Shown here one piece after another: positions 1 to 40,110 of a stretch of 64,000 bases of DNA (its first letter is position 1; every line of letters begins with the position of its first letter). The notes under the pieces are model-generated. The model did no database searches and was not told the origin of the DNA. It saw only the letters and a program-made list of their open reading frames with translations. Source of the DNA: Candidatus Dormiibacterota bacterium (GTDB lineage: Bacteria > Acidobacteriota > Polarisedimenticolia > Gp22-AA2); the NCBI GenBank assembly GCA_035635555.1, contig DASQAT010000046.1:320075-384074 (forward strand), written 5' to 3'. Both the position numbers and the translations under genes were made by a program.

Positions 1-32
1 CGCGGCGGAGCTGCGCGGAAGGAGGGAGACCG

Positions 33-1319
33 GTGAAGACGATCCTGCTGGCGGATGACAGCATCACCATCCAGAAGGTGGTGGAGCTGACCTTTTCCGA
101 AGCCGATTACCGGGTGGTCTCCGTCAGCACCGGCGGGCAGGCCCTCAAGAAAATCGCCGAGGTGCGCCCGGATATCGTCCTCCTGGATGTCATCATGCCG
201 GAGAAGAACGGCTACGAGGTGTGCGAGCAGATCAAGCGCAGCCCGGCGACGTCCGGCATCCCCGTGCTCCTCCTGACCGGCACATTCGAGCCGTTCGACA
301 AGAAGCGCGCCGACACCGCCGGCGCCAACGGACACATCACGAAACCGTTCGAATCGCAGGCTCTCGTCGCCAAGGTCGAGGAGCTGATCGCCTCGACACC
401 GTCGGTCTCGGTCGACGACGAGGGGGGGCGGATGGACATCATTTCGGGCGGGGAGGTGTACCGCGTCGATCCGGGCAGGGCAGGAGAAGGGATGCGCCCT
501 GCTCCGCCCGCCCCCGAGGCGGCCCCCCGCCCGTCGCCGCCCGAGGCTGCTCCGGTCGCTCTCGGCGGGTCTCTGAGCCCGGGGGCCGGAATGCCGCCCC
601 CCGGTTCTTCTCTTCCGGACGAAGACCTCGACGCTGATACGGCGCGGCACCCTGCCCTGGCGCCCCCTGATCCGTCGGCCGGCGGATCGTTCGTCGGGTT
701 CGCGGATGTCGGGATCGGGGAGGAGATGGATGCGGATGACATCGTGCCCGATCGCTACGACGTGGGGGCCGGCACGTCCGCACCGTCGACCGTCAAGCTG
801 CGCCGGGACGAGGTGATGCCTCGCCCTGACGAGGGAAGCGGGTATCCTGCGGCGCGGTCAGGAGCGGCGGGGAGGGCCGGGGCGGCGGAGGAATCGTTCA
901 GGGGATCGTTCGAGGCCGAGTTCGACCTGGTCGATGAAGCGCTTCCGGAGACCACGACCGTGACCGGGGAGGCACCGACGGAGACGGGCGGCTGGGCGCC
1001 GCCGCCGGAGGCGCCGCCCGCCGAGACCTGGCAGGACACCGAGGTCACGACCGAGAAGAGCCCGCGCGCAGGACGGGGGTCGACCGATCCGTCACCGGTG
1101 GAGAGGCCGCGCTCCGCGGCCGCGCCGATGCCGGCCGAACCTCCGAGGGACGGCCGTGGAGCGTCCCTGACGCCGGAGATGATCGATCTCATCGCCGAGA
1201 AGGTGGTGGAGCGTCTGGCGGACCGCGTGGTGCGCGAAGTGGCCTGGGAGGTCGTCCCCGGGGTCGCGGAGGCCATTGTCCGAAAAAGGATCAAGGAAAT
1301 CGAAGAGAGCGGCTCTTAG
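33..1319 (+). CDS. romR: Response regulator with CheY-like receiver domain, Pro/Ala-rich linker and conserved acidic C-terminal region; RomR-like polarity regulator
   Basis: N-terminal receiver motifs LLADDS..DIVLLDVIMP..GYEVC..IPVLLLTGTFEPFD..GHITKPFESQ. A ~250-aa Pro-rich low-complexity middle follows. The conserved C-terminal block is LTPEMIDLIAEKVVERLADRVVREVAWEVVPGVAEAIVRKRIKEIEE. The architecture matches RomR of myxobacteria from memory. GTG start at 33 is preceded by GGAAGGAGGG. Confidence 0.5.
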   Translation: MKTILLADDSITIQKVVELTFSEADYRVVSVSTGGQALKKIAEVRPDIVLLDVIMPEKNGYEVCEQIKRSPATSGIPVLLLTGTFEPFDKKRADTAGANGHITKPFESQALVAKVEELIASTPSVSVDDEGGRMDIISGGEVYRVDPGRAGEGMRPAPPAPEAAPRPSPPEAAPVALGGSLSPGAGMPPPGSSLPDEDLDADTARHPALAPPDPSAGGSFVGFADVGIGEEMDADDIVPDRYDVGAGTSAPSTVKLRRDEVMPRPDEGSGYPAARSGAAGRAGAAEESFRGSFEAEFDLVDEALPETTTVTGEAPTETGGWAPPPEAPPAETWQDTEVTTEKSPRAGRGSTDPSPVERPRSAAAPMPAEPPRDGRGASLTPEMIDLIAEKVVERLADRVVREVAWEVVPGVAEAIVRKRIKEIEESGS

Positions 1320-1340
1320 TCCCCGAGGCGCCGGCCCGCT

Positions 1341-1383
1341 CCCCGGAGGCCCCGGGCGAGGCAATCCAGCGCCTTCTTTTTTT
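1341..1383 (+). terminator. Candidate intrinsic terminator after the response regulator gene: short GC hairpins followed by a T-run TTCTTTTTTT
   Basis: cccgg-aggcc-ccggg and ggcg..cgcc stems lie immediately 5' of a 10-nt T-rich run (1374-1383). This is an unusual T-run in a ~70% GC sequence. The stems are weak. Confidence 0.3.
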
Positions 1384-1427
1384 GTCCGCGGACCCGCTGT
1401 CCGGGACTGCGCAGAGTGATCCCGCAT

Positions 1428-4079
1428 ATGGATTTCGACAAGGCATTCGAGCCCGCGCGGATCGAGGGGCGCTGGTACGACCACTGGATCAGGCTGGGTG
1501 TGTTCACGGCGCACGTCGACTCGCCCCGGCCCTCCTTCTCCATGGCGATCCCGCCTCCGAACGTGACGGGGCGCCTGCACATGGGACATGCCCTGAACAA
1601 CACCCTTCAGGACATCCTGGCGCGCTGGCGGCGCATGCGCGGAGACGACGTCCTGTGGCTTCCGGGCACCGATCACGCCGGGATCGCCACGCAGATGGTC
1701 GTGGACCGGCAGCTGGCGAAGGAAGGGACCAGCCGGGAGGCGCTGGGGCGCGAGGCCTTCGTTCGCCGGGTCTGGCAGTGGAAGGACGAGTACGGCGGGG
1801 TCATCATCGACCAGCTCAAGAGGCTGGGGTGCTCGTGCGACTGGACCCGGGAGCGATTCACCATGGATCCGGGCCTGTCGCGGGCGGTGCGTGAGGCGTT
1901 CGTCCGCCTGCACGAGGCCGGGCTCATCTACCGTGACAAATTCATCGTCAACTGGTGTCCCCGCTGCCGGACCGCCATTTCCGATCTCGAAGTGATCCCG
2001 CAGGAGACGCACGGTCACCTCTGGACCATCCGCTATCCCCTGGCCGACGGCCAGGGCGGGATCGAGGTGGCGACCACGCGCCCCGAGACGATGCTCGGCG
2101 ACACCGGGGTCGCTGTCCACCCCGAGGACGAACGCTACCGCTCCCTGATCGGCAGGACCGTCGTTCTCCCGCTCGTGGGTCGCGCCCTGCCTATCGTCGC
2201 CGACCCGTTCGTCGAGAAGGAGTTCGGAACGGGCGCCGTCAAGATCACACCGGCCCATGATCCGAACGATTTCGAGGCGGCCAGGCGCGCCGGTCTGCCG
2301 TCGCTCGTGGTGATGGACGAGCAGGGGAGGATGAACGACAACGTGCCCGAAGCCTACCGCGGTCTCGATCGATTCGACGCGCGTGGGCGCGTGGTCGCGG
2401 ATCTCCGCGCCCAGGGATTCCTGGTGTCCGTCCAGGATCACCTGCACAACGTCGGACGCTGCCAGCGTTGCAATACGATTGTCGAGCCGTACCTGTCGAC
2501 GCAGTGGTTCGTGCGCGTCAAACCGCTCGCTGACGAGGCGATCCGGGCGGTCGCAGACGGGCGGGTGCGCTTCGCTCCGGCGCACTGGGTCAACAGCTAC
2601 AACGAATGGATGGGGAAAATCCACGACTGGTGCATCTCGCGCCAGCTCTGGTGGGGGCACCAGATCCCGGCCTGGCACTGCGGGGCCTGCTCGGAGATCC
2701 ACGTGGCCCGCGAGGCCCCCGCCTCGTGCCGGCATTGCGGCGGGCGGGCCCTCCGGCAGGACCCGGATGTCCTCGACACCTGGTTCTCCTCCGCCCTGTG
2801 GCCGTTCTCGACTCTCGGATGGCCGGACGACACGCCCGATCTGCGGCGCTATTACCCGACCACGATCCTGGTCACGGGCTTCGACATCCTGTTCTTCTGG
2901 GTCTGCCGGATGATCATGATGGGGCTGCGCTTCATGACCGTCGAACCGTTCCACCGGGTGTACATCACTGGTCTGGTGCGCGACGCCGAGGGGCAGAAGA
3001 TGTCCAAGACCCGCGGCAACGTCGTCGACCCTCTGGATCTGATCGACCGCTACGGTGCCGACGCCCTGCGCCTGACCCTGGCGGCGATGGCCACGCCGGG
3101 CTCCGACCTGCCCCTGTCCGAGGAGCGCATGGTCGGATACCGGGCGTTCGCCAACAAGATCTGGAACGCCGCCCGTTTCGTCCTCCTGAACCTGGGAGAG
3201 ACCGGGGCGATCGAGACGCCGCCGCCCCTGCCGCCGCTCGACCAGCTTCGCGTCGAGGACCGCTGGATCCTGAGCCGCCTGGCGCGCCTGGCAGGGACCG
3301 TGGAGGAACGCCTGGCCGAGTCCCGGTTCGACGACACCGCCAACGCCCTGTATCAGTTCGTCTGGCACGAGTACTGTGACTGGTACCTGGAGATGGCGAA
3401 GCGTCATCTGCTCCCCGGTGGCCCGCCGGACGAGGCGGCCCGGGCGCGAACCGTGCTCCTGCACGTCCTCGACTCGGTGCTGCGGCTCCTGCACCCGGTC
3501 ATGCCGTTCATCACCGAGGACCTCTGGCAGCGCATTCCCCATCGTGGAGAGACGATCGCGCTGTCCTCCTACCCCGAGCGCGACGAGACGCACATCGACG
3601 AGGCGGCGGAACGGGACATCGCTCTCCTGATGGAAATCGTGGTCAGGGTGCGCAACATCCGGGCCGAGCTGAACGTCGACCCGGGGCGCCGTGTGCCCCT
3701 CCTGTACCATGCGCGCGATCGCGAGGCGCAGACGATCGTCGCGGCCAACGCCGCCACGATCGCCACGCTGGCCCGCCTGGAGGGCGTGAGCGCCTCGGCG
3801 GACCTGTCGACCGCCGGGCCCGCGGCCCGGGCGGTCGCGCCGGGCGTGGACCTCGCGGTGCCGCTCGCGGGAATCCTCGATCTCGAAGCCGAAAAGCGGC
3901 GTCTGTCGCGCGAGATCGAGAAGCTCGACAAGGAGAGGGAGGGGCACGCCCGCAAGCTGCAGAACGCCGAGTTTCTGGGGAAGGCGCGGCCCGAAATCGT
4001 CGACAAGGCCCGGCGGATCCACCAGGAGCTGCAGGAGAAGATCGACAGGCTCTCCCGGACGATCGAATCGCTCCGCTGA
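1428..4079 (+). CDS. valS: Valine--tRNA ligase
   Basis: HMGH-type motif PPPNVTGRLHMGHALN, KMSKTRGNVVDP (KMSKS) and a C-terminal coiled coil. The track ORF starts at GTG 1416. ATG 1428 (MDFDKAF) is the likelier start. Confidence 0.9.
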   Translation: MDFDKAFEPARIEGRWYDHWIRLGVFTAHVDSPRPSFSMAIPPPNVTGRLHMGHALNNTLQDILARWRRMRGDDVLWLPGTDHAGIATQMVVDRQLAKEGTSREALGREAFVRRVWQWKDEYGGVIIDQLKRLGCSCDWTRERFTMDPGLSRAVREAFVRLHEAGLIYRDKFIVNWCPRCRTAISDLEVIPQETHGHLWTIRYPLADGQGGIEVATTRPETMLGDTGVAVHPEDERYRSLIGRTVVLPLVGRALPIVADPFVEKEFGTGAVKITPAHDPNDFEAARRAGLPSLVVMDEQGRMNDNVPEAYRGLDRFDARGRVVADLRAQGFLVSVQDHLHNVGRCQRCNTIVEPYLSTQWFVRVKPLADEAIRAVADGRVRFAPAHWVNSYNEWMGKIHDWCISRQLWWGHQIPAWHCGACSEIHVAREAPASCRHCGGRALRQDPDVLDTWFSSALWPFSTLGWPDDTPDLRRYYPTTILVTGFDILFFWVCRMIMMGLRFMTVEPFHRVYITGLVRDAEGQKMSKTRGNVVDPLDLIDRYGADALRLTLAAMATPGSDLPLSEERMVGYRAFANKIWNAARFVLLNLGETGAIETPPPLPPLDQLRVEDRWILSRLARLAGTVEERLAESRFDDTANALYQFVWHEYCDWYLEMAKRHLLPGGPPDEAARARTVLLHVLDSVLRLLHPVMPFITEDLWQRIPHRGETIALSSYPERDETHIDEAAERDIALLMEIVVRVRNIRAELNVDPGRRVPLLYHARDREAQTIVAANAATIATLARLEGVSASADLSTAGPAARAVAPGVDLAVPLAGILDLEAEKRRLSREIEKLDKEREGHARKLQNAEFLGKARPEIVDKARRIHQELQEKIDRLSRTIESLR

Positions 4080-4108: not shown

Positions 4109-7100
4109 TCAGAATTCCCAGCGTGCCGCCAGTCTCCAGGAGCGCGGCGCCATGTAGGAAATCGGCTGTCCGAAATCGGGGTCGGTGACGCCCGTCCTGA
4201 GCTCGATATCGTCGTCGAACGACGCGACGGTCTGACGGTCCAGCACGTTGAAGACGTCCAGCATGATCCGCATGCGCCCCTTCGCGACGTCCACGGGATA
4301 GTCGGCGTGCAGATCGATGGTCGTCATTCCCGGCGTGCGGCCCACATTGCCCCGCTTGACCGGCGTGTAGGACTGCAGGAAGACCGCCTGGGTCACGTTG
4401 TCCACGTCCGACAGGGCCGCCGGCAGGCTGGACGTCGTGCGCAGGACGAAGTCGCCGGCGTTGCCGTTGCCGATCGGATCGGCCCAATAGGCGTACACGG
4501 GGTCGATCCCGGGGATCTCGCCGGCGTTCTGGTAGCTCGGATGCGCCAGGAGCGACGTGCGGGGCACGCCGCTGCTGTAGCTGAAGTTCGCCCCGAGACG
4601 CAGCTTGTTCATGAACTGGTACGTCGGATAGAGGTGAAGGACGTGGCGTGCATCCGCGGGGAGCGGGCCCTTGAGGAACTGGCCGGACATCAGGGGTGAG
4701 TTCGGAAAGTCATACAGCGACGTGATGTTCGGGTCGCTCTGCCCGTTGTCGTTCCGGTACAGCCCTTCGTAGTTCCCCTCCAGGCTCGACAGTCGATAGT
4801 TCGCGAACAGGGACCAGCGGTCCGACATGCGCTTGGTGTAGATGAGCTCCAGCGCCTTGTAGACGCGCTCCGGCTTCGGGAAATTGAACATACCGCCCGA
4901 GGGGACCTGCTTCGTCCCGGGATTGGCCAGGAGGTACTGCCCGAACGGCGTGGCCGGGAAGGTGGTGCTCTTCCCGCCGTTCACCCCCTTCGCTCCGCCG
5001 AACGGATCGTAGGGATAGCCGTACGCCACTCCGTAATAGAAGTTCTGGGTCTGCTCGATGGCGTTGACCTGCACGTCTTCGAGGACACGACCCTGCGTGC
5101 GATAGATGCCGCGCACCTCGAAGGACGAATCGGGAGTGACCTCGAAGGAGTAGCCGCCCGACAGCTCGTCCTCGTACGGGAGCTTGACGCCCCCCACCAC
5201 CGCCGTCTGGTCGATCCCCTGCGTGAACACAGAGGCCAGGGTGGCGCAGCCACCGAGGCCGGTGTCGACGCCGCTGCTGTTGACGCACTCGCTCGCGCCG
5301 CCGGGGATCGTTCGCGGCTGTGTGAGGGCGCGGTCGCTGAACTCCTGCCGGCTGATGCCGACCTCGTTGCTGAAGGCGCGCACCGCCAGGTCGTTCGGGA
5401 CCCTCTCGTAGTACCGCCCGAAATTCAGGTAGGCGTGGCTCTTGCCGTCTCCCCGGACGTCCCAGGACACGCCGATGCGCGGCGCGATGTTCCCCGCGAA
5501 GGAATAGCCGTTGGGCGAGTAGCTCGACGTCCCCGGTGTGAAGATCCGGGTCGGGACGAAGAACCCCGAGCCGGGAAACGTCTCCTTCTGCACCGTCTCG
5601 GTGGAGAACGGCAGGGTGAAGGCTCCGGCACCCTCGACCCTCTCCTCGGTCGATCGAAGACCGAGCTTGAGAGTGACACGCGATGCCACCGTCCAGCTGT
5701 CCTCGATGAACAGGTTCGACTCCTTGGACAGGGTGGGCGGGATCTCCGGGCCGAGCCGCGCGCGGGTCACCCGGAACCGGTTGCCGCTGTCGAAGGCCAC
5801 CGCCGGGTCGGCCCCTACGCCGTTGCGCACGTCCACCGTGGCGCCCCCCCGCGTGGGAATCGAAATCGTGTCCTGCACACCGTCCCCGTTGTTGTCCACC
5901 GGCAATCCGTTGGTGTAGCTGATCGGCAGCTGGATGTTGAACGAGGGACCGGTGTAGGTCGGCGTCTCCTGGTAGCTGATGTCGTCGTACTCGACGCCGT
6001 ATTTCAGCTCGTGCGTCCCCAGGATGTTGGTGAGCTTGACGGTGTAGACCGTGTTCTGGTCGTCCTGGTTGGTGATGAAGCCGACGCCCCCCCGGTTGGG
6101 GGCTACGGGGTTGATCTGCAGGGGCTGGATGCCGAGCGCCGGGTCGTTATAGCTGTCGGCGCCCCGGGTGAACTCGAGCAGGTTGCGCAGATCGCGGTAG
6201 TCGTAGTCGTTGACCGCCGACGTTTCCTTGAACACGCCGGCATGCCGGGCCACCTGCGCCTCCATGAAGAATTTCGGCGAGAAGACCGAGCTCCACTTGA
6301 TCGACTGGTTGTTGGAACCGAAGCGGATCTTGCTTTCACCCCCGCCGGTGGCGAAATCGGTGAACTGCGGCGCATTGTCGCGCTGGGGGCCGTCGCTTCC
6401 CGTGGCGGGATCTCCGAAGAAGGTGAAATCGACCTGGTTGCTGGGCGACGCCTGCCAGGAGATCTTCAGCGCGTAGTTGTCGGCCCGGCGCGTCCGGTCG
6501 AGAGTGTTCGTGGAGGAGGGGAAGGCGAGCCGATTGGTGGCGTAGGTCGTCCCACCGAACCCCGTCGGCAGCCCCTCGTCGAACACCGACACTCCGGCCT
6601 GCGCCGGCGCGAAAGCCGGGTTGTCGAGGCTGTTGGCGCGCCGGCTGTCGACGGTGGTCACAGGATTGAAGGCGAAGAAGTAGAACAGCGTGTCCTTCTT
6701 GATCGGCCCCCCCACCGAGAAGGCGAAATCGTTGACATTTTCGGCCAGGGTGTTGGAGGTGCCGGTCGTGAGATCGACCGGTGTATAGGAGGATCGCCAG
6801 CTGCGAGGCGTGGCGTACCAGGCGACGCTCCCCTTGAAGTCGTTGGTGCCCGACTTGACGATGGTGTTGATGATCCCTCCGAGGGCCTGCCCGTACTCCG
6901 CCTCGAAGCCGCCGGTCTTGATCTGGACCTGGTCCAGGAACTCGCTGGTCACCCCGGTGCCCAGGGAGCCGTACACGATGTTGTAGGCGCCGATCCCCCC
7001 GAACCCGGTATTCGTGATGTTGACGCCGTCGATCAGATACGAGTTCTCCAGGCCGGTCGCGCCGCTGATCGAATAGTTGCCCTGACCGGTGCCGAGGCCG

Positions 7101-7591
7101 CTCACGACACCTGGCGCGACCGCGTAGGTGTCGGTGAACGATCTTCCGAGCGGCACGGCGTTCGCGAAATCGTCGTATTTCAGGCTGGTTCCGGTCGCGG
7201 TCGAGGTGGTGTCGATGAGCGGTGCCGCGCCCCGGACCGTGACGCTCTCGGTCTTGCCGGGCTCGAGAGTGAAATTGAGCGTCAGGCGCTGGTTCAGCGC
7301 GACGGCGATATCACTCCGAATGACCGTCGTGAACCCGCCGGCGGCCTCGACGCGTACGGTGTACGAGCCGGGACGCAGGAACGGAACGATGTACCCGCCG
7401 TTCGCGTCGGTGGTGGCGGTGCGCGTCCCGGACTCCGACACCACGATGACGATCGCACCCGCGATCGGCCGGCCGGCGAGGTCGGTCACCTTGCCGGTGA
7501 TCGTGCCCGTCGTCAGCTCCTGCGCGGTGAGGGGAGCGAGTGAGAGTGCAAGAAGCAGCAACGAGGTCAGGCAGGTCAACAGCGGTTTCAT
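4109..7591 (-). CDS. Oar-like TonB-dependent outer-membrane receptor with N-terminal carboxypeptidase-regulatory-like domain
   Basis: Signal peptide MKPLLTCLTSLLLLALSLAPLTAQE. CarboxypepD_reg-like block GKVTDLAGRPIAGAIVIVVSESGTRTATTDANGGYIVPFLRPGSYTVRV. A long beta-barrel region ends in the aromatic C-terminus ...ARWEF. Confidence 0.8.
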   Translation of the reverse strand: MKPLLTCLTSLLLLALSLAPLTAQELTTGTITGKVTDLAGRPIAGAIVIVVSESGTRTATTDANGGYIVPFLRPGSYTVRVEAAGGFTTVIRSDIAVALNQRLTLNFTLEPGKTESVTVRGAAPLIDTTSTATGTSLKYDDFANAVPLGRSFTDTYAVAPGVVSGLGTGQGNYSISGATGLENSYLIDGVNITNTGFGGIGAYNIVYGSLGTGVTSEFLDQVQIKTGGFEAEYGQALGGIINTIVKSGTNDFKGSVAWYATPRSWRSSYTPVDLTTGTSNTLAENVNDFAFSVGGPIKKDTLFYFFAFNPVTTVDSRRANSLDNPAFAPAQAGVSVFDEGLPTGFGGTTYATNRLAFPSSTNTLDRTRRADNYALKISWQASPSNQVDFTFFGDPATGSDGPQRDNAPQFTDFATGGGESKIRFGSNNQSIKWSSVFSPKFFMEAQVARHAGVFKETSAVNDYDYRDLRNLLEFTRGADSYNDPALGIQPLQINPVAPNRGGVGFITNQDDQNTVYTVKLTNILGTHELKYGVEYDDISYQETPTYTGPSFNIQLPISYTNGLPVDNNGDGVQDTISIPTRGGATVDVRNGVGADPAVAFDSGNRFRVTRARLGPEIPPTLSKESNLFIEDSWTVASRVTLKLGLRSTEERVEGAGAFTLPFSTETVQKETFPGSGFFVPTRIFTPGTSSYSPNGYSFAGNIAPRIGVSWDVRGDGKSHAYLNFGRYYERVPNDLAVRAFSNEVGISRQEFSDRALTQPRTIPGGASECVNSSGVDTGLGGCATLASVFTQGIDQTAVVGGVKLPYEDELSGGYSFEVTPDSSFEVRGIYRTQGRVLEDVQVNAIEQTQNFYYGVAYGYPYDPFGGAKGVNGGKSTTFPATPFGQYLLANPGTKQVPSGGMFNFPKPERVYKALELIYTKRMSDRWSLFANYRLSSLEGNYEGLYRNDNGQSDPNITSLYDFPNSPLMSGQFLKGPLPADARHVLHLYPTYQFMNKLRLGANFSYSSGVPRTSLLAHPSYQNAGEIPGIDPVYAYWADPIGNGNAGDFVLRTTSSLPAALSDVDNVTQAVFLQSYTPVKRGNVGRTPGMTTIDLHADYPVDVAKGRMRIMLDVFNVLDRQTVASFDDDIELRTGVTDPDFGQPISYMAPRSWRLAARWEF

Positions 7592-8016: not shown

Positions 8017-8045
8017 TTGACCCCCCCAGGGGCGTGTGGGACAAT
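8017..8045 (+). promoter_or_regulatory. Candidate sigma70 promoter for nadC (TTGACC-17-GACAAT)
   Basis: Hexamers seen at 8017-8022 and 8040-8045, about 11 nt before the nadC ATG. Confidence 0.3.
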
Positions 8046-8055
8046 CCGCTCCTCC

Positions 8056-8904
8056 ATGATCGATCCCGAGGTGGTGCGCCGCGCGGTACGCGCGGCCCTC
8101 GACGAGGATATCGGCCCGGGCGACCTGACGTCCCGCCTCGTGATCGAGGAGGGGGTCCGAGCCCGCGGCGACATCGTGGCGCGCGAGCCCCTGGTCGTTG
8201 CCGGGATGTCCGTGGCGCGCGAAGCGTTCCGCCAGGTCGACGAGTCCCTCGACTTCCAACCCCGGTGCGACGATGCCGGGCTGCGGGAGCGGGGGGAATG
8301 CATCGCGACGGTCGAGGGGGCGGCGCGCTCCATCCTGGCGGCGGAACGAACGGCCCTCAACTTCCTGCAGAGAATGTGCGGCATCGCCGTCGCCACACGG
8401 CGGGCCGTCGGGCTCCTGCGCGGAGCCCGCGTGCAGATTTCCGGGACCCGCAAGACCGCCCCGGGACTGCGTGTCCTGGACAAGTACGCCGTGGAGATCG
8501 GCGGCGGGTCGGCGCATCGCCAGGGGCTCTTCGACGCGGTCCTGATCAAGGACAACCACTGGCGCCTGGCCGGGGGGGTCGAGAAGGCGATCGATCGCGC
8601 CCGGCGCGGGATGGCCCGGGACGGACGCCTCCTGACGATCGAGATCGAGGCGGGGACCCTGGACGAGGTCGGCGAAGCCCTGCGCGCCAGCGCCGATGCC
8701 ATCCTGCTCGACAACATGGACCGCGCGACTCTGGAGCGCGCCGTCGCCCTGGCGCGCGGCCGCGCCTTCCTCGAGGTCTCGGGGGGGATTCGCGAAGAGG
8801 AGATCGCGGCGATCGCGTCCCTCGGGGTCGATCGCATCTCACTCGGGTCTCTCACCCATTCGGTTCGGGCGGCCGACCTGGCGCTGGAGCTCCGGCCGGC
8901 ATGA
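8056..8904 (+). CDS. nadC: Nicotinate-nucleotide diphosphorylase (quinolinate phosphoribosyltransferase)
   Basis: QPRTase motifs GTRKTAPGLRVLDKYAV..GG..HRQGLFDAVLIKDNH. Internal ATG 8056 is chosen over the upstream extension. The stop overlaps the birA start (ATGA). Confidence 0.85.
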   Translation: MIDPEVVRRAVRAALDEDIGPGDLTSRLVIEEGVRARGDIVAREPLVVAGMSVAREAFRQVDESLDFQPRCDDAGLRERGECIATVEGAARSILAAERTALNFLQRMCGIAVATRRAVGLLRGARVQISGTRKTAPGLRVLDKYAVEIGGGSAHRQGLFDAVLIKDNHWRLAGGVEKAIDRARRGMARDGRLLTIEIEAGTLDEVGEALRASADAILLDNMDRATLERAVALARGRAFLEVSGGIREEEIAAIASLGVDRISLGSLTHSVRAADLALELRPA

Positions 8905-15213: not shown

Positions 15214-16587
15214 GTGCTATATTCCATTCGGCTTCAATCACTTGCGCTCGATTTCTCGAGGTCTTCCGCGGTGCCGGCACCTGTCGTCGCCATCGTGGGC
15301 GCGCCGAATGTCGGCAAGTCCACTCTTTTCAACCGCATGCTCGGCCGGCGGAAGGCGATCGTCTCTGACATCCCTGGCGTGACCCGCGATCGCCTGATGG
15401 CGACCTGCGACCTGTTCGGTGTGGCCGTGACCTTGGTGGACACGGGGGGTGTGGTCCATGGCAAGACCGACGACCTCACTCGACGAGTGCGCCTGGAGGC
15501 GCTCAAGGCTGTCGACGAGGCGGATGTGATCCTCCTGGTCATGGATGGCCGCGCGGGAGTCACCGGGCTCGATCTCGAGGTGGCGCGCCTCCTGCGCTCT
15601 TCAGGGAAGCCGATCGTGCCCGTCGCCAACAAGATAGACGCAGGCTCCCTGGAGGGGCTCGAAGCGGACGCCTACCGCCTTGGACTCGGAGAGGTCGTCC
15701 CGATCTCGGCCGAGCAGGGTCGAGGTCTGGACCAGCTCATCGATCGGCTGGTCGGAGCGCTCCCGGGCCCGCGCGGCCCCGCCGAGCAGTCCGGTGTGCC
15801 GGTGGCCATCGTGGGTCGGCCGAACGTCGGCAAGTCCTCTCTGTTCAACAGGCTGGTGAAGGAGTCCCGCGTTCTCGTGGCCCCGATCCCGGGAACCACG
15901 CGCGATCCGATCGACGCTCTGTTCCAGCACGCCGGGGTGACCTACAGGGTCATCGACACCGCGGGGATCAGGCGGCGCTCCGGCCGCTCCGAAGAAATCG
16001 AGTGGGTCAGCGTATTGAAGGCAAGACAGGCGCTGCAGGAGGCCGCGATCGCCGTGGTCCTGGTCGATGCCTCGTCGGAAATCGACCACCAGGACAAGAC
16101 CATCCTCGGGCTGGTGGCCCACGACCGGATTCCGGCCGTCGTGGCGGCGAACAAGATCGACCTGGTGCCTTTGAGCGGCGGGGCGCGGACGAAGCGGCTG
16201 GAGGCGATTCGCGATACGCTCGGATTTGCATCGTACATGCCGATCGTGCCGCTGTCGGCGCTCCAGGGAGAAGGGGTCGATCGGCTCCTCGACACGCTTG
16301 AGACCCTGCGACAGGAAGGTCTCAGACGCTTCACCACCGCCGAGCTGAATCGCGCGCTCCAGGAGATCGTCGCGGAGAAGCAGCCGCCCGCGGATGGCGG
16401 GCGGGAAGTGCGCTTCTATTACATCACGCAGGGGGGAGGGCCGCCGCCAAGGTTCATCGTGTTCGGGAATGGCCGGAAGGTTCCCGAGCCGTACCGGCGG
16501 TTCATGACCGGTCGCCTGCGCTCGCGTCTGGGGCTCTCCGTCTCTCCCCTGGTCGTGAGCTTCCGGCGCAGCAGGCCCGTTCGTTGA
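15214..16587 (+). CDS. der: Ribosome-associated GTPase Der (EngA), two GTPase domains plus KH-like C-terminus
   Basis: Two P-loops (VVAIVGAPNVGKST and VAIVGRPNVGKSS) and DTAG motifs. The real start is probably GTG 15271 (VPAPVVAIVG). Confidence 0.85.
   Translation: MLYSIRLQSLALDFSRSSAVPAPVVAIVGAPNVGKSTLFNRMLGRRKAIVSDIPGVTRDRLMATCDLFGVAVTLVDTGGVVHGKTDDLTRRVRLEALKAVDEADVILLVMDGRAGVTGLDLEVARLLRSSGKPIVPVANKIDAGSLEGLEADAYRLGLGEVVPISAEQGRGLDQLIDRLVGALPGPRGPAEQSGVPVAIVGRPNVGKSSLFNRLVKESRVLVAPIPGTTRDPIDALFQHAGVTYRVIDTAGIRRRSGRSEEIEWVSVLKARQALQEAAIAVVLVDASSEIDHQDKTILGLVAHDRIPAVVAANKIDLVPLSGGARTKRLEAIRDTLGFASYMPIVPLSALQGEGVDRLLDTLETLRQEGLRRFTTAELNRALQEIVAEKQPPADGGREVRFYYITQGGGPPPRFIVFGNGRKVPEPYRRFMTGRLRSRLGLSVSPLVVSFRRSRPVR
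15215..15223 (+). promoter_or_regulatory. Extended -10 element TGtgcTATATT upstream of der
   Basis: TG-n-TATATT at 15215-15223. It lies inside the track ORF, implying a downstream der start (GTG 15271). Confidence 0.3.
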
Positions 16588-16632: not shown

Positions 16633-17904
16633 ATGGTTCTCTTTAACTATTCGACCCGCGAGCTGACCGCCAAGATCGTCTACTACGGTCCGGGGCTCTG
16701 CGGCAAGACCACGAACCTGCAGTTCACCTACGAGTCGCTCCCTGACAACGTCAAGAAGGGGAAGATGCTGTCCCTCGCGACGAAGACGGACCGGACTCTG
16801 TTCTTCGATTTCCTGCCGCTCGAGCTGGGCCGGATCCGGGGCATGAAGACGCGGGTCCAGCTCTACACCGTGCCGGGACAGGTGTTCTACAACTCGACGC
16901 GCAAGCTGGTCCTGAAGGGGGCCGACGGCGTGGTGTTCGTGGCCGATTCACAGTCCAAGATGCTGGAGGCCAACGTCGAGAGCTACAAGAACCTCGAGGA
17001 CAATCTGCGCGAGATGGGCCTGCGCATCGAGGAGACCCCGCTGGTCATGCAGTTCAACAAGCGTGACCTGCCCCACCTCGCGTCGATCGAAGAGATGAAC
17101 GCCCAGATCAACCGTCACAACGCCCCCTTCTACGAGGCCGTGGCGACCACCGGGATCGGGGTCGAGGACACCCTCAAGGCGATCACCAAGCTGGTTCTCA
17201 ACAACCTGGCGTCAAAGTACAAGCTCGACGGCACGGGGGCGCCGGACGCGACGACGCCGGTCGAGGCGGCGGGCGAGGCTCCGCCGCGGGCGATCGCGCA
17301 GGGACCGAGGCCCATAGCACCTCCTCCCGCCCGGCCTGTACCGGCGGCGAGGCCGGCCGCTCCCTCAGCGCCTCAGCCCGAGGAGGACCTCGCCCTGGAA
17401 GCCCTGGAGATCGAGGAGCCCGCCGAAGCCGCCGTCAGCGTCCCGCCCTCCCGCGCCGCGCGCCCGGCGCCACCCTCCTCGCGCGCCGCCGCGCCGCCGA
17501 TGGACGACGTCATCGATCTGGTGGACGAGATCGACCTGCCCGAAATCGAGGAGCGGGAGGACGGATCCGTCGACCTGGGGGAGGATCTCCTCCAGGAGCT
17601 GGAGGCCGAGCCGGTGCCTGCCGTTGCCCGTGCCTCCGGGGGAGCGGGGGCCCCGTCCCGCCCGCTGGCGTCGGCGCCGCTGCGGGCCGTTGCCCCGCGC
17701 GTCGAGTTCGAGGATCCGATCGACCTCGACGAGCCGATCGATCTCGACGGAAACTGGGAGACTCCCGCGCCGGCCGCCTCCAGCATCGATATCGGCTCGA
17801 TCGGACCCGGCCAGGAGAAGACCATCGAGCTGCCGGTCACCGCGAGCGTCGACGGCAGGCCGGTCCGTCTGAGCCTGAAGGTCACCGTCCGACTGTCCCG
17901 CTGA
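16633..17904 (+). CDS. mglA: MglA-type Ras-like small GTPase with ~240-aa Pro/Ala/acidic C-terminal extension
   Basis: The N-terminal ~195 aa are near-collinear with MglA: KIVYYGPGLCGKTTNLQ, TDRTLFFDFLP (intrinsic Arg), LYTVPGQVFY (catalytic Gln), QFNKRDL. The C-terminal half is low-complexity with repeated acidic (D/E)xIDL motifs. ATG 16633 (MVLFNY) is chosen. Confidence 0.75.
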   Translation: MVLFNYSTRELTAKIVYYGPGLCGKTTNLQFTYESLPDNVKKGKMLSLATKTDRTLFFDFLPLELGRIRGMKTRVQLYTVPGQVFYNSTRKLVLKGADGVVFVADSQSKMLEANVESYKNLEDNLREMGLRIEETPLVMQFNKRDLPHLASIEEMNAQINRHNAPFYEAVATTGIGVEDTLKAITKLVLNNLASKYKLDGTGAPDATTPVEAAGEAPPRAIAQGPRPIAPPPARPVPAARPAAPSAPQPEEDLALEALEIEEPAEAAVSVPPSRAARPAPPSSRAAAPPMDDVIDLVDEIDLPEIEEREDGSVDLGEDLLQELEAEPVPAVARASGGAGAPSRPLASAPLRAVAPRVEFEDPIDLDEPIDLDGNWETPAPAASSIDIGSIGPGQEKTIELPVTASVDGRPVRLSLKVTVRLSR

Positions 17905-27946: not shown

Positions 27947-28837
27947 ATGGCAGGCGATCCCTTCAAAGAGTTTACGGTCAAGCGCAGGAAAGGCGAGACG
28001 ATCTATGTCGAGGGGGACCTCGGCAGCGAGATGTACGTCGTCCAGTCGGGCGCAGTGCGCATCTTCAGGAGTACGGGCGGGGTGAAGCAGGAGCTGGCGA
28101 TCATGGAGAAGGGAGACTTCTTCGGAGAGATCGCCGTCCTGGAGGGTCTGCCCAGGACCGCGTCAGCCGAGGCGCTCGACGAGTGCGAGATCATCGAGAT
28201 CAACAGCACCACCTTCGACAAGATGATCCGCGCGAACATCGAGATCGCGGTGCGCATGCTCCGCAAGCTGAGCAACCGGCTGCAGGAGGCCAACCGGAAG
28301 ATCGAGATCCTGTCCCGCGCCCCCGCTCCGGGGAAGCCCACTGCGGGGGCACGCATCGCCGCCGTGGACATCGACCAGCCGGCCGAGGCGCCGCCACCGG
28401 CCGCGACGGCGGCGCCGTCTTCGGGTGTCTCCGCCGCCCCGAAGCCGATCGGGGAGGTGGAGGTGCCGGAGGGGGCATTCGCCCTGCTCGTCCTGGAGGG
28501 CGGCTCACGTCACTTCCCGATCACCACCGACACTTCGCTCATAGGACGGTACGACCCCGTCACCGGCACGCGGCCGGAGGTCGACCTCACACAGGTCGAT
28601 ATCAACCGCTCCGTGTCCCGCCGCCACGCCCGGATCGTCCTGGCGGAGGGGGCCTTCCTCCTTTCGGAGGAGGTCGGCGCTTTGAACGGGACGTTCGTCA
28701 ATGGCCAGCGCCTCTCGTCCGGGGCGCCCTCTCCCATCGTGAGCGGGGACAAGGTCGGCCTGGGGATGGTCACGCTTGTCTTCAAGACGGCGGCCAAGGC
28801 CGCCGGACGCAAGCCGGCGGCCGCCGGCCGTTCCTGA
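27947..28837 (+). CDS. Cyclic-nucleotide-binding domain protein with C-terminal FHA domain
   Basis: N-terminal cNMP-binding fold (GDFFGEIAVLEGLPRTASAEAL). Ala/Pro linker. C-terminal FHA (IGRYDP...SRRHARI...NGTFVNGQRL...GDKVGLG). Confidence 0.7.
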   Translation: MAGDPFKEFTVKRRKGETIYVEGDLGSEMYVVQSGAVRIFRSTGGVKQELAIMEKGDFFGEIAVLEGLPRTASAEALDECEIIEINSTTFDKMIRANIEIAVRMLRKLSNRLQEANRKIEILSRAPAPGKPTAGARIAAVDIDQPAEAPPPAATAAPSSGVSAAPKPIGEVEVPEGAFALLVLEGGSRHFPITTDTSLIGRYDPVTGTRPEVDLTQVDINRSVSRRHARIVLAEGAFLLSEEVGALNGTFVNGQRLSSGAPSPIVSGDKVGLGMVTLVFKTAAKAAGRKPAAAGRS

Positions 28838-28847: not shown

Positions 28848-30308
28848 TTGGCGCACGCCGACCTGCGCGCCTTTCTCGAGGTCCTGGAGGCGCGGCGCGA
28901 GCTGGTGCGGGTGCACGAGCCGGTGAGCGTAGACCTGGAGATCAGCGCGGTGACCGACCGCGTTTCGAAATCCAGGGACGGCGGACCCGCGCTCCTGTTC
29001 GAGAGACCCCTGGGGTTCGACATTCCGGTGCTCATCAACGCCCTCGGCTCCCTCAACCGCATGAAGCTGGCCCTGGAGGTCGATTCGCTGGACTCCTTCG
29101 CAGAGCGCATCGACGCGCTTCTCGGAACGAGCGCGCCTGTCTCTCTCCTGGACAAAATCAAGATGCTGCCGCGGCTCAAGGACCTGGCCGACCTCTTTCC
29201 CGTGTCGGTCAGGAAGGGAGCCTGCCAGGAAGTCGTCGAGAAGGACCGGCCGTCGCTGCTCACCCTGCCGGTGATCAAGTGCTGGCCGAAGGACGCCGGC
29301 CCCTACATCACCCTGCCGCTGGTGTTCACGCACGATCCGGAGACCGGCAAGCGCAACTGCGGCATCTACCGCATGCAGGTGTTCGACGCGACCACGGCCG
29401 CGATGCACTGGCAGATTCACAAGCATGGAGCGCACCACCACCGACGGGCCGGCGAACACGGCCGGCGCCTGGAGGTCGCCTGCGCCATCGGTGCGGACCC
29501 CGCGCTGGTTTTCGCCGCCGCGGCGCCGCTGCCCGACGACGTGGACGAGATGTTCCTGGCGGGTTTCGTGAGACGCGAGCCGGTGCCGCTGGTGAAGGCA
29601 GTCACCGTGGACGTCGAGGTCCCGGCGGCCGCCGAGATCGTGCTGGAGGGTTACGTCGATCCGCTCGAAAAGAGGCGCGAGGGACCCTTCGGCGACCACA
29701 CAGGGTACTACTCGCTGGCGGATGATTACCCCGTGTTCCACCTGACCTGCGTGACCCGCAGGCAGAAGCCCATCTATCAGACGACGATCGTGGGCCCTCC
29801 GCCGATGGAGGATTACTATATTGGCAAGGCGATCGAGCGAGTGTTTCTGCCGATCATGAAGCGTCAGCTCCCCGAAATCGTGGACATCAACATGCCGGCG
29901 GAGGGGATCTTCCACAACCTGATTCTCGTCTCCATGCGCAAGCGCTATCCGGGCCACGCGCGCAAGGTCATGCACGCCATCTGGGGGATGGGACAGGCGA
30001 TGTTCAGCAAGGTCATCGTCGTGGTGGACGAGAATGTGAACGTCCAGGACCCGCGCGAAACGACCTGGAAGGTACTCAACCACATCGACCCCGAGAGAGA
30101 CATCGAATTCGTGCTCGGACCGGTCGACGTCCTCGACCACTCGTCGCGTCTGCCGCAGTACGGCTCCCACATGGGCGTCGACGCGACGCGCAAGGGGCCC
30201 TCGGAGGGATTCCACCGCGAATGGCCGGACGAGATTCGGCACGATCCGGCCACTCTGGAGATGATCGCCAGGAAGTGGCAGAAATACGGCCTTGCGCGGG
30301 GGGAGTGA
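28848..30308 (+). CDS. UbiD-family (prenyl-FMN-dependent) decarboxylase
   Basis: DLRAFLEVLEARRELVRV N-terminus and NCGIYRMQVFD core. Probable TTG start after an AAGGAG RBS. The track ORF starts earlier and overlaps the upstream gene. Confidence 0.7.
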   Translation: MAHADLRAFLEVLEARRELVRVHEPVSVDLEISAVTDRVSKSRDGGPALLFERPLGFDIPVLINALGSLNRMKLALEVDSLDSFAERIDALLGTSAPVSLLDKIKMLPRLKDLADLFPVSVRKGACQEVVEKDRPSLLTLPVIKCWPKDAGPYITLPLVFTHDPETGKRNCGIYRMQVFDATTAAMHWQIHKHGAHHHRRAGEHGRRLEVACAIGADPALVFAAAAPLPDDVDEMFLAGFVRREPVPLVKAVTVDVEVPAAAEIVLEGYVDPLEKRREGPFGDHTGYYSLADDYPVFHLTCVTRRQKPIYQTTIVGPPPMEDYYIGKAIERVFLPIMKRQLPEIVDINMPAEGIFHNLILVSMRKRYPGHARKVMHAIWGMGQAMFSKVIVVVDENVNVQDPRETTWKVLNHIDPERDIEFVLGPVDVLDHSSRLPQYGSHMGVDATRKGPSEGFHREWPDEIRHDPATLEMIARKWQKYGLARGE

Positions 30309-30571
30309 TGGGAAACTTCATCGGCGGCTCCGCCTACGCCATGTCGCGCGACATCGCGGAGGGACTGATCCTGGTCAACACCAACACCTTCAAGAAATTC
30401 TCGACGGTCGAACTGAAGCAGCTTGCCTTCGAGCTGGACAGGGTCCAGAAGGAGGCCCGCTCCGAGCAGCCGGCAGGTGACGACACCCAGGCGATCCAGA
30501 AGCGCGGACGCAAGCTTGGCCGTATCACCACCGCTCTGCAGATTATCAACCAGTCGATGATCAAGAGATGA
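30308..30571 (+). CDS. Small hypothetical protein (87 aa) translationally coupled between the UbiD-family gene and trpS
   Basis: The ATG overlaps the UbiD stop (TGATG) and its own stop overlaps the trpS start (ATGATG). No recognised domain. Confidence 0.45.
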   Translation: MGNFIGGSAYAMSRDIAEGLILVNTNTFKKFSTVELKQLAFELDRVQKEARSEQPAGDDTQAIQKRGRKLGRITTALQIINQSMIKR

Positions 30572-39385: not shown

Positions 39386-39427
39386 CTTGCCCGGATGGCC
39401 GGGTTATAAGAACGAACGGGGGAGAGG

Positions 39428-39922: not shown

Positions 39923-40011
39923 GTTGTGCGCCCTCGTAGACATGTCCAAGTCGTTCATTACACAAATCTTAGAGCACGCGCTGGCTCCGTGACATATTAT
40001 CTGCCTCAGTC

Positions 40012-40041
40012 TTGACACTCCAGAGGCCGCTTCGGTATAAA
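40012..40041 (+). promoter_or_regulatory. Candidate sigma70 promoter for parAB (TTGACA-18-TATAAA)
   Basis: Hexamers at 40012-40017 and 40036-40041 in a lower-GC intergenic region. Confidence 0.45.
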
Positions 40042-40085
40042 GCGTCATCGGCGGCCGGCATTTCAAAGCACGCTTCGGCATCGCG

Positions 40086-40110
40086 CGACGTGACCGATAG
40101 GTCACGACGT
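40086..40110 (+). promoter_or_regulatory. Inverted repeat cgaCGTGACC-gata-GGTCACGacg between the promoter and parA start (candidate operator / partition site)
   Basis: 10-bp arms with one mismatch and a 4-nt spacer, about 25 nt upstream of the parA GTG. Confidence 0.4.

What the first reader, a model, noticed from the sequence alone, without database searches (positions are those of the whole stretch)
33..1319. RomR-like response regulator, part of the MglA polarity module, in an apparently non-myxobacterial genome
The receiver sequence with GTFEPFD...GHI.KPFESQ, a long Pro-rich linker and a conserved acidic C-terminal block matches the RomR architecture. RomR (with RomX) is the GEF/polar recruiter of MglA. 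With the MglA-like gene 15 kb downstream this suggests a motility/polarity switch in this lineage.
Basis: partly seen in the sequence, partly recalled or inferred. Interest (0 to 1): 0.5.

Follow-up and report, generated by a model that had tools for sequence, protein, structure and literature searches.

The report
RomR polarity regulator in an acidobacterium
The gene at 33-1319 is a true counterpart of RomR, the pole-marking response regulator that works with the small GTPase MglA in Myxococcus, here in an uncultured acidobacterium; RomR was already reported in Acidobacteria in 2012, so this is a solid but ordinary find.

Summary
ORF 33..1319 (+, 428 aa) has a receiver domain, a disordered Pro/Ala/Gly-rich acidic linker and a conserved C-terminal helix. 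I fetched real M. xanthus RomR using a published primer. The receiver domains are 55% identical (142 bits, against 87 bits or less for any generic receiver). The RomR-C core AWEVVP..AE is shared, including the Trp needed for MglC binding. RomR-C profiles built from each phylum find only the other phylum's RomR. The locus is syntenic with the type locus: [two CheW]-romR-valS-nadC. A true MglA (259 bits to M. xanthus MglA structures) lies 15.3 kb downstream. The host is an acidobacterium, probably Polarisedimenticolia. RomR outside myxobacteria, including Acidobacteria, was published in 2012, and RomR-C occurs in about 2,400 protein clusters, so this is a new member of a known kind. MglB, MglC, RomX, pili and Frz genes are not in the window, and the genome beyond it could not be checked. 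Two side observations are more interesting. This clade's MglA carries a conserved ~230-aa acidic tail ending in a beta-hairpin and has no adjacent mglB. The uncharacterised CheW-like neighbour of romR is conserved across phyla.

The parts
1..58 (+). 3' end (last 18 codons plus stop) of the upstream CheW-domain gene 'CheW-2', cut by the window edge. It overlaps the romR start codon by 26 nt.
   Evidence: window:2-58 translates to AAELRGRRETGEDDPAGG*. That matches the C-terminus of the 169-aa CheW-domain protein upstream of romR in the 97%-identical relative L037, which scores 49 bits against Pfam PF01584.
17..28 (+). Shine-Dalgarno-like GGAAGGAGGGAG upstream of the romR GTG
   Evidence: Read directly from the sequence.
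33..1319 (+). romR orthologue, 428 aa
33..398 (+). Receiver (REC) domain, residues 1-122. D8/D9/D52/K104 form an intact phospho-acceptor pocket, and E107 corresponds to E108 of M. xanthus RomR, the RomX-contact residue. The RomR-specific motifs GTFEPFD (83-89) and H..TKPFES (101-108) are present.
   Evidence: Pfam 85.7 bits. 55% identity, 142 bits, 3e-50 to M. xanthus RomR REC. Cross-phylum invariant columns. pLDDT above 90. E108 and D53 are from bioRxiv 10.1101/2024.02.20.581209 and PMC2034494.
399..1160 (+). Intrinsically disordered Pro/Ala/Gly-rich acidic linker, residues 123-376. It contains a low-confidence beta-hairpin (134-145) and clade-specific short motifs: GGSYVGFAD around 217-225, IVPDRFD around 237-243, PPPEAPPAETWQ around 322-333.
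   Evidence: pLDDT below 50 over most of 146-376. Composition. Conserved columns G217 G218 G222 F223 A224 D225 P239 D240 R241 P325.
1161..1316 (+). RomR-C, residues 377-428: a Glu-rich C-terminal helix with W405, P409 and E413, which correspond to W394, P398 and E402 of M. xanthus RomR.
   Evidence: AF2 helix 381-426 at pLDDT 80-90. Reciprocal profile hits. BLASTP 11/25 identical and 20/25 positive. W394 and E402 are from PMC12719032.
1325..1384 (+). GC-rich hairpin followed by a U7 run in the romR-valS gap. It resembles an intrinsic terminator and suggests cheW-cheW-romR is one transcription unit.
   Evidence: This is a consensus-level call only; the fold z-score is not significant in this GC-rich DNA.
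1416..4079 (+). valS (valyl-tRNA synthetase), a conserved downstream neighbour of romR
   Evidence: 47-55% identity to the gene directly downstream of romR in Myxococcaceae and Archangiaceae loci. MXAN4460 = ValRS in PMC2034494. Adjacent in 20 of 38 metagenomic RomR loci.
8017..8904 (+). nadC (quinolinate phosphoribosyltransferase), the next member of the conserved romR-valS-nadC block
   Evidence: Pfam. Same order in Myxococcus loci and in L038-L042.
15214..16587 (+). der/engA GTPase, directly upstream of mglA (46-nt gap)
   Evidence: Pfam MMR_HSR1 x2 plus KH_dom-like. der is in the same position in L038 and L039.
16633..17904 (+). mglA, 423 aa. An MglA GTPase core (1-195) is followed by a conserved acidic Pro/Ala-rich tail (196-394) and a C-terminal beta-hairpin (395-420). 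No mglB is adjacent.
   Evidence: 259 bits, 7e-76 to M. xanthus MglA 6hjh/5ymx/6h17; P-loop GPGLCGKTT, TDRTLFF and VPGQVFY are identical. The tail is conserved in 95 clusters of 380-460 aa among the 120 listed. The beta-hairpin has pLDDT about 88-90 in an otherwise poor model.

Best explanation
ORF 33-1319 encodes the orthologue of M. xanthus RomR in an uncultured member of the Acidobacteriota, probably class Polarisedimenticolia. Shown here: it has the RomR receiver domain with an intact phosphorylation site, a disordered linker, and the helical RomR-C with the residues that M. xanthus RomR uses to bind the roadblock protein MglC. It sits in the ancestral romR neighbourhood ([two CheW domains]-romR-valS-nadC), and a catalytically intact MglA lies 15 kb away in a linkage conserved across the clade. 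Inferred by homology: the protein oligomerises and localises to a cell pole through RomR-C and the linker. Its receiver domain holds a RomX-like adaptor through the conserved Glu107, and that adaptor captures MglA-GTP. RomR-C docks an MglC/MglB-type roadblock GAP complex. Together these would set up a switchable front-rear axis, most likely controlling type IV pili. Phosphorylation of D52 by a still unknown chemosensory input, possibly routed through the co-transcribed CheW-like proteins, would trigger relocation.
For: REC: 55% identity over 119 aa, 142 bits, 3e-50 to M. xanthus AM003 RomR, which I fetched with the published native primer. The best generic REC scores 77 bits in PDB and 87 bits in NCBIfam. 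RomR-C: the AWEVVP..AE core is shared, and W405/P409/E413 correspond to W394/P398/E402. A profile built only from Acidobacteriota RomR-C hits only romR ORFs among 3,661 ORFs of 36 myxobacterial loci (E about 1e-6). The myxobacterial profile hits only this ORF among 941 window ORFs (E 1.2e-5). Architecture: AF2 gives a confident REC, a disordered 146-376 and a helix 381-426, matching the M. xanthus description in PMC12719032 and PMC10329633. Cross-phylum invariant residues include D8, D9, D52, K104, E107, W405, P409 and E413. Synteny: valS and nadC lie downstream in the Myxococcus loci and in the window. Two CheW genes lie upstream in L037, L038 and L040, and a two-CheW-domain gene lies upstream in M. 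xanthus, as Leonardy 2007 described for MXAN4460-4463. MglA: 259 bits to M. xanthus MglA with identical catalytic motifs. RomR and MglA homologues appear on contigs of identical length in at least 14 cases. Literature: RomR co-occurs with MglA/MglB and T4P (PMC3441718).
Against: No mglB, mglC, romX, pilus, gliding or frz gene is in the 64-kb window (Pfam; PDB screens 53-55). The partners are therefore assumed, not seen. mglA here is not next to mglB, unlike in M. xanthus and T. thermophilus, and it carries a ~230-aa tail of unknown function, so the module may be wired differently. Nothing about localisation, phosphorylation or motility can be tested in silico. The biochemical role of RomR/RomX (GEF or effector) is disputed even in M. 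xanthus (PMC13408092).
Confidence: 0.9

Rival explanations
1. It is a true RomR orthologue, but it works in a rewired module. MglA in this clade has no MglB partner of the classical operon type and is instead regulated in cis by its own conserved acidic tail and beta-hairpin. RomR takes its input directly from the two co-transcribed CheW-like adaptors. The output need not be motility reversal; it could be fixing a single pole for pili or secretion, as in Bdellovibrio, where MglA is an orphan and RomR is retained.
For: mglA sits between der and an Rce1-like gene with no roadblock gene within -16/+46 kb. The tail is conserved in 95 clusters of 380-460 aa, with conserved acidic blocks and a terminal hairpin. 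The cheW-cheW-romR unit has a 26-nt gene overlap and a terminator-like site after romR. There is precedent for orphan MglA with RomR in Bdellovibrio (PMC3983030, PMC4316618).
Against: The MglA catalytic residues (Arg finger, Gln) are intact, which argues for a normal GAP-controlled cycle. RomR-C keeps the MglC-binding Trp, which argues that a roadblock partner exists elsewhere in the genome. mglB could simply lie outside the window.
Confidence: 0.25
2. It is only a generic CheY-like receiver protein with a low-complexity tail, and the resemblance to RomR is superficial.
For: Pfam and NCBIfam recognise only Response_reg. All database names are generic. Default BLASTP of the full-length proteins reports only a 25-aa HSP.
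Against: The missing REC HSP is an artefact of composition adjustment; domain-wise BLASTP gives 142 bits. The RomR-C profile matches are reciprocal and specific. The RomR-specific invariant motifs are shared. Three to four genes of synteny with the type locus are conserved.
Confidence: 0.02
3. The romR block was acquired recently by horizontal transfer from a myxobacterium and is not a native acidobacterial system.
For: The same [CheW]-romR-valS-nadC order occurs in two distant phyla.
Against: Identity to the myxobacterial proteins is only 32-55%. GC content and GC3 of the gene match the surrounding housekeeping genes. The flanking synteny rpoN-hpf-...-romR-valS-nadC-birA-coaX is stable across deep branches of the clade, down to 41% identity. 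The same arrangement recurs in many divergent metagenomic lineages. All of this indicates old inheritance.
Confidence: 0.03

Closest known systems
M. xanthus RomR (MXAN_4461; Leonardy 2007, Keilberg 2012, Carreira 2023, Kodesia 2025)
   Same: Same three-part architecture: REC, disordered linker and C-terminal Glu-rich helix. REC is 55% identical and has the phospho-acceptor Asp (D52 = D53) and the RomX-contact Glu (E107 = E108). RomR-C has W405 = W394, P409 and E413 = E402. Same gene neighbourhood (2xCheW, valS, nadC). Similar length (428 against 419-420 aa).
   Different: The linker is far less Pro-rich (15.7% against 34.6%), is net acidic, and carries clade-specific short conserved motifs. 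The two CheW domains upstream are two genes rather than one. There is no RR-GGDEF gene upstream in the relatives examined. Outside the AWEVVP..AE core, RomR-C diverges (11/25 identical).
Acidobacterial RomR homologues already catalogued (Cabther_A0541, Acid345_0072, Acid_3193; Keilberg 2012 Table S3)
   Same: Same phylum and same family. Keilberg plotted an 'Acidobacteria' linker class separately.
   Different: Those come from cultured Chloracidobacterium, Koribacter and Solibacter, and two of the three lack RomR-C. The present protein is complete and comes from an uncultured Polarisedimenticolia-like lineage. I could not compare it directly because I did not retrieve those sequences.
Bdellovibrio bacteriovorus RomR / orphan MglA (Milner 2014)
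   Same: RomR is retained together with an MglA that is not encoded next to mglB.
   Different: According to the literature, Bdellovibrio lacks MglB altogether. Here MglA keeps all catalytic residues and has a long C-terminal tail. Whether MglB is absent from this genome is unknown.
M. xanthus / T. thermophilus MglA (PDB 6hjh, 5ymx, 6h17, 3t12)
   Same: The window MglA core (residues 3-192) aligns end to end at 259 and 224 bits, with identical P-loop, Arg-finger and catalytic Gln motifs.
   Different: It has about 230 extra C-terminal residues (an acidic Pro/Ala-rich region plus a beta-hairpin) and no adjacent mglB. The characterised MglA proteins are single-domain, 195-198 aa.

Membership tests
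RomR (as defined by Keilberg et al. 2012, PMC3441718) | N-terminal receiver domain belonging to the RomR REC subfamily | tested here: met
   142 bits, 55% identity to M. xanthus RomR REC, against 77 bits for the best PDB REC and 87 bits for the best NCBIfam model. The invariant motifs GTFE.FD and H.TKPFES are shared across phyla. I did not build a full REC phylogeny.
RomR | Conserved C-terminal RomR-C region, Glu-rich, with invariant Trp and Pro | tested here: met
   W405 and P409 are present and the region is 17.3% Glu. Profile searches are reciprocal and specific. W and P are invariant in 54 clade members and in the 22-sequence cross-phylum alignment.
RomR | RomR-C is alpha-helical | tested here: met
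   AF2 predicts a single helix 381-426 at pLDDT 80-90. This is a prediction only.
RomR | Unstructured, non-conserved linker between REC and RomR-C | tested here: met
   pLDDT is below 50 across most of 146-376. The linker is P/A/G-rich and cannot be aligned with the myxobacterial linker.
RomR | Phosphorylatable Asp (D53) and acidic pocket | tested here: met
   D8, D9, D52 and K104 are invariant. The role of D53 is from PMC2034494.
RomR | MglC-binding residues of RomR-C (W394 critical; E390, K391, E402 conserved; PMC12719032) | tested here: met
   W405 and E413 are conserved. E390/K391 are replaced by R401/E402, which are still charged. Binding itself cannot be tested here.
RomR | RomX-contact residue E108 on REC (bioRxiv 10.1101/2024.02.20.581209) | tested here: met
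   E107 in KPFES is invariant.
RomR | Co-occurrence with MglA in the same genome | tested here: met
   MglA lies at 16633-17904 and scores 259 bits to M. xanthus MglA. The linkage is conserved on shared contigs.
RomR | Co-occurrence with MglB (and MglC, RomX, T4P) in the same genome | not testable with these tools
   None is found in the 64-kb window. The source genome is not in the look-up collection, and only +/-10 kb around relatives could be read.
RomR | Positional orthology with the type locus MXAN4460-4462 (ValRS, RomR, 2xCheW). This is supportive, not formally defining. | tested here: met
RomR | Bipolar asymmetric localisation and a requirement for motility and reversals | not testable with these tools
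   Requires experiments in an uncultured organism or heterologous complementation.
MglA group 1 (Wuichet & Sogaard-Andersen 2014, PMC4316618), for the gene at 16633-17904 | MglA-type GTPase core with intrinsic Arg finger and catalytic Gln | tested here: met
   TDRTLFF and VPGQVFY are identical to M. xanthus MglA.
MglA group 1 | Single-domain protein coupled to an adjacent mglB | tested here: not met
   The protein is 423 aa with a conserved ~230-aa tail. Its neighbours are der and an Rce1-like gene. It would count as an 'orphan' in the sense of PMC4316618.

The most novel reading that the evidence does not exclude
The polarity module in this acidobacterial clade may be a distinct variant in two respects. 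First, the CheW-like proteins encoded directly upstream of romR may be a conserved but unstudied partner that couples RomR to a chemosensory array. They overlap romR by 26 nt here, are fused as MXAN4462 in M. xanthus, and are present in 22 of 64 diverse metagenomic romR loci. This would be a candidate for the long-missing input that phosphorylates or relocates RomR. Second, MglA has acquired a conserved acidic disordered tail with a terminal beta-hairpin, and this tail may act in cis as a built-in regulator or pole anchor in place of an operon-encoded MglB.
Probability: 0.2. Interest if true: 0.55.

Novelty: new member of a known kind. Interest (0 to 1): 0.27.

Why it matters
It shows that the complete RomR design is kept almost unchanged between Myxococcota and an uncultured class of Acidobacteriota. 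That design comprises the phosphorylatable receiver, the RomX-contact Glu, the MglC-binding Trp helix and even the gene neighbourhood. This supports the view that the MglA/RomR polarity module is ancient and widespread rather than a myxobacterial speciality, and it suggests surface motility or polar organisation in an abundant but uncultured soil and sediment lineage. None of this overturns current knowledge, because Keilberg et al. reported RomR in Acidobacteria in 2012. The practical value is in annotation: about 2,400 protein clusters carry RomR-C, and those relatives that carry any database name are labelled only 'response regulator' or 'CheY-like'. Two leads could be tested in M. xanthus itself: the conserved CheW-like neighbour of romR, and the tailed MglA.

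Tried and rejected
(1) Pfam, NCBIfam and PDB sequence searches with the full ORF recognise only the receiver domain. No RomR-specific model or structure exists in those libraries, so they cannot decide membership.

(2) Default BLASTP and tblastn of the full-length proteins reported only the 25-aa RomR-C HSP and dropped the 55%-identical REC domain. This is an artefact of composition-based statistics on Pro-rich proteins, which I resolved with domain-wise BLASTP and with comp_based_stats 0.

(3) An exact look-up of the window protein in the contig collection found nothing, so I used the 97%-identical P0001 instead.

(4) Primers for the codon-optimised synthetic gene in PMC12719032 gave only part of RomR-C and appear to have lost one base in the stored text. 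I replaced them with the native gene fetched using the Keilberg primer.

(5) My MglA and MglB sequences recalled from memory were used only as a first probe. The MglA call was then verified against PDB. The MglB probe found nothing convincing.

(6) I screened the only unassigned small helical ORF (30221-30571) and two Pfam-less proteins against PDB for RomX, MglB or MglC and found no match.

(7) The AF2 model of the tailed MglA was poor (mean pLDDT 47.7, GTPase fold not recovered), probably because the alignment is too uniform. I use only the terminal hairpin, and with caution.

(8) The listing of cluster members gave no organism names for the closest NCBI-sourced homologues.

(9) Rfam found nothing in the window.

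(10) I considered and rejected recent horizontal transfer from myxobacteria; see the rival explanations.
Full report
OBSERVATION. It has the codon-position GC pattern of real genes in this 65-70% GC window (GC3 0.83). The overlapping antisense ORFs, including an 1131-aa one across valS, are the usual high-GC artefacts. A GGAAGGAGGGAG ribosome-binding site precedes the GTG. The quoted motifs are present: GTFEPFD at residue 83 and KPFESQ at 104. Pfam, NCBIfam and PDB sequence searches see only a receiver domain (85.7 bits, residues 4-115). None of those libraries holds a RomR-specific model, so they cannot settle the question.

OBTAINING A REAL RomR. Rather than rely on memory, I took the native romR 5' primer from Table S2 of Keilberg et al. 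2012 (PMC3441718). I used it as an exact 23-nt pattern on the genome collection. It hit 36 Myxococcaceae/Archangiaceae genomes, including M. xanthus AM003 (L030). The ORF starting at the primer there is 419 aa and ends in ...SREVIEKIAWEVVPQLAETIIREELERLIKDRETQH. This agrees with the C-terminal peptide encoded by the primers of both Keilberg 2012 and Kodesia 2025.

HOMOLOGY. Default BLASTP of the two full-length proteins reports only a 25-aa RomR-C match (11/25 identical, 20/25 positive, E 2e-5). The missing REC match is an artefact of composition correction on these Pro-rich proteins. Domain by domain, the receivers are 55% identical over 119 aa (142 bits, 3e-50). Without the correction, the alignment runs end to end (187 bits, 3e-59). 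For comparison, the best generic receiver scores 77 bits in PDB and 87 bits in NCBIfam.

For RomR-C, I built a profile from 117 acidobacterial sequences only. It finds exclusively the romR ORFs among 3,661 ORFs of the 36 myxobacterial loci (25 hits, E about 1e-6, nothing else up to E = 10). The reverse profile, built from myxobacterial RomR-C, finds only this ORF among 941 window ORFs (E 1.2e-5).

In a cross-phylum alignment the invariant columns fall into three groups. The first is the phospho-acceptor pocket: D8, D9, D52 and K104. D52 corresponds to D53 of Leonardy 2007 (PMC2034494). The second is the RomR-specific GTFE.FD and H.TKPFES motifs. These include E107, which corresponds to E108, the residue that salt-bridges RomX R76 (bioRxiv 10.1101/2024.02.20.581209). 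The third is A404, W405, P409, A412 and E413 in RomR-C. W405 and E413 correspond to W394, which is essential for MglC binding, and to E402 (PMC12719032). Keilberg's 'invariant Trp and Pro' are both present.

An AlphaFold2 model built on 54 homologues gives a confident receiver (pLDDT above 90). Most of 146-376 is disordered (pLDDT below 50). The model ends in one long helix, 381-426, at pLDDT 80-90. This is the architecture described for M. xanthus RomR (PMC12719032, PMC10329633).

SYNTENY. In the Myxococcus loci romR is followed directly by valS and then nadC. The window has romR 33-1319, valS 1416-4079 and nadC 8017-8904, with one outer-membrane-protein gene inserted between valS and nadC.

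The window begins only 32 nt before romR. I therefore read the upstream region from relatives: L037 (97% identical), L038, and L040, a MAG whose protein is labelled Polarisedimenticolia. All three have two small CheW-domain genes immediately upstream, and the second overlaps the romR start. The window's first 58 nt encode the last 18 residues of that second CheW gene.

In M. xanthus the gene immediately upstream of romR has two CheW-like stretches (Pfam 52 bits). Leonardy 2007 describes the locus in exactly this way: MXAN4460 = ValRS, MXAN4462 = two CheW domains, MXAN4463 = RR-GGDEF. The two acidobacterial CheW genes match the two M. xanthus domains colinearly but weakly (E about 1e-4 and about 0.09).

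A GC-rich hairpin followed by a U7 run lies in the romR-valS gap. It suggests that cheW-cheW-romR is one transcription unit, but this is a consensus-level inference.

THE FAMILY AT LARGE. A pattern scan of metagenomes returned 469 tblastn-confirmed relatives among the first 600 pattern matches. Of the 80 loci kept, 51 of the 55 complete ORFs end in [IV]AWE[VI][VI]P..AE, with lengths from 310 to 704 aa. CheW-like ORFs lie directly upstream in 22 of 64 informative loci. valS lies directly downstream in 20 of 38, and nadC takes that position in many of the rest. A Pfam spot-check confirmed CheW above threshold in 8 of 10 sampled upstream ORFs.

An exhaustive profile search of 1.84 billion cluster representatives found 2,368 proteins with RomR-C (648 at E <= 1e-10). 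Among the 150 listed, the domain is at the extreme C-terminus in all but one (P0321, 35-83 of 235 aa). RomR is therefore a large and common family in environmental bacteria. The relatives returned by the homology search that carry any name are labelled only 'response regulator' or 'CheY-like chemotaxis protein'.

HOST. The named relatives are 'Candidatus Polarisedimenticolia bacterium' (61-64% identity) and 'Acidobacteria bacterium 13_1_40CM'. Polarisedimenticolia is a class of Acidobacteriota. Synteny with L040, from GCA_036001465.1, is complete. The genome is indeed non-myxobacterial. However, Keilberg 2012 already listed RomR in Acidobacteria (Cabther_A0541, Acid345_0072, Acid_3193), Geobacter/Pelobacter, Deferribacterales and Aquificales.

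PARTNERS. The 'MglA-like gene' is real: 16633..17904 scores 259 bits (E 7e-76) against M. xanthus MglA structures, with identical P-loop, Arg-finger and catalytic Gln motifs. RomR and MglA homologues sit on contigs of identical length in at least 14 cases, so the linkage is a trait of the clade.

Pfam annotation of all called genes shows otherwise only housekeeping functions. I also screened the leftover ORFs against PDB. No roadblock (MglB/MglC), RomX, pilus, gliding or Frz gene is in the window. Whether they exist elsewhere in the genome could not be tested.

MECHANISM. By homology with M. xanthus I infer the following, at about 0.6 confidence for the details. RomR-C oligomerises the protein, helps target it to a pole and docks an MglC/MglB-type roadblock complex (PMC10329633, PMC12719032). 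The receiver domain holds RomX through E107, and RomX captures MglA-GTP (bioRxiv 2024.02.20.581209). Phosphorylation of D52 controls relocation (PMC2034494). Dinet et al. 2026 (PMC13408092) report no GEF activity; they find that RomRX binds MglA-GTP as an effector and that RomR sequesters MglB.

WHAT IS UNUSUAL. First, MglA in this clade is 380-460 aa. Its near-invariant GTPase core is followed by a Pro/Ala-rich tail that is net acidic (42 D+E against 19 K+R). The tail has conserved acidic blocks (EEDLALEALE, DVIDLVDEIDL, DPIDLDEPIDLD) and a conserved terminal beta-hairpin, which is the only confident part of a poor AF2 model. It is flanked by der and an Rce1-like gene, not by mglB. I found no description of such an MglA in the searchable literature.

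Second, the CheW-like neighbour of romR is conserved across phyla. In the library it is mentioned only once, in 2007, as required for fruiting-body formation ('unpublished').

Third, the clade splits into two groups. One has long RomR proteins with the CheW pair (L037, L038, L040). The other has short RomR proteins (311-355 aa) without it (L039, L041, L042). Synteny is otherwise identical.

These three points are leads, not findings.

VERDICT. The gene is a RomR orthologue next to a conserved MglA in an acidobacterium. It is a new member of a known and already widely distributed family, so the interest is low to moderate.

Noticed in passing
window 16633-17904 (+): MglA carries a conserved ~230-aa C-terminal extension after an intact GTPase core. 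The extension is an acidic Pro/Ala-rich disordered region with conserved blocks (EEDLALEALE, DVIDLVDEIDL, DPIDLDEPIDLD) and a confident terminal beta-hairpin (395-420). No mglB is adjacent; the neighbours are der upstream and an Rce1-like gene downstream. 95 of the 120 listed homologue clusters are 380-460 aa. I found no description of this in the searchable literature.
   Followed up: partly
window 1-58 (+); L037 9134-10026; L038 9131-10026; L040 5115-6004; L030 5384-6199: Two small CheW-domain genes lie directly upstream of romR, and the second overlaps romR by 26 nt. In M. xanthus they correspond to the single two-CheW-domain gene MXAN4462. CheW-like ORFs precede romR in 22 of 64 diverse metagenomic loci. 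The function of this neighbour is unpublished, and it may link RomR to a chemosensory array.
   Followed up: partly
window 33-1319, residues 134-145, 217-225, 237-243, 322-333: The supposedly non-conserved RomR linker contains clade-specific conserved short motifs (MDIISGG..Y.VDP hairpin, GGSYVGFAD, IVPDRFD, PPPEAPPAETWQ). These look like short linear interaction motifs and are absent from myxobacterial RomR.
   Followed up: no
L039, L041, L042 compared with L037, L038, L040: A sister subclade has shorter RomR proteins (311-355 aa) and lacks the CheW pair, while keeping the same rpoN-hpf-acad-mcm-B12-romR-valS-nadC-birA-coaX order. The CheW pair and part of the linker were therefore lost or gained together.
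   Followed up: partly
window 1325-1384 (+): A GC-rich hairpin followed by a U7 run lies between romR and valS. It resembles an intrinsic terminator, and a U7 run is unusual in DNA with 69% GC.
   Followed up: partly
window 4109-7591 (-): A 1160-aa TonB-dependent-type outer-membrane protein with a CarboxypepD_reg N-terminus is inserted between valS and nadC. Those two genes are adjacent in relatives L038-L042.
   Followed up: no
window 39400-42000: GC content dips to 0.57-0.61 around the parA (40131-40886) and parB (40771-41700) genes, against 0.65-0.70 elsewhere in the window.
   Followed up: no
window 27947-28837 (+): A protein combines a cyclic-nucleotide-binding domain with an FHA domain. 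It lies next to an 862-aa M23 peptidase-domain protein on the opposite strand.
   Followed up: no
L102 12762-13289; L121 14538-15110: In two divergent metagenomic romR loci a distant MglA-like gene (34% identity) lies only 4-6 kb downstream of romR-nadC, which suggests that romR-mglA linkage recurs in other lineages.
   Followed up: no
method note: Default BLASTP and tblastn (composition-based statistics) drop a 55%-identical, 119-aa receiver-domain alignment when both full-length proteins are Pro-rich. A naive reciprocal BLAST with RomR could therefore wrongly look negative.
   Followed up: yes
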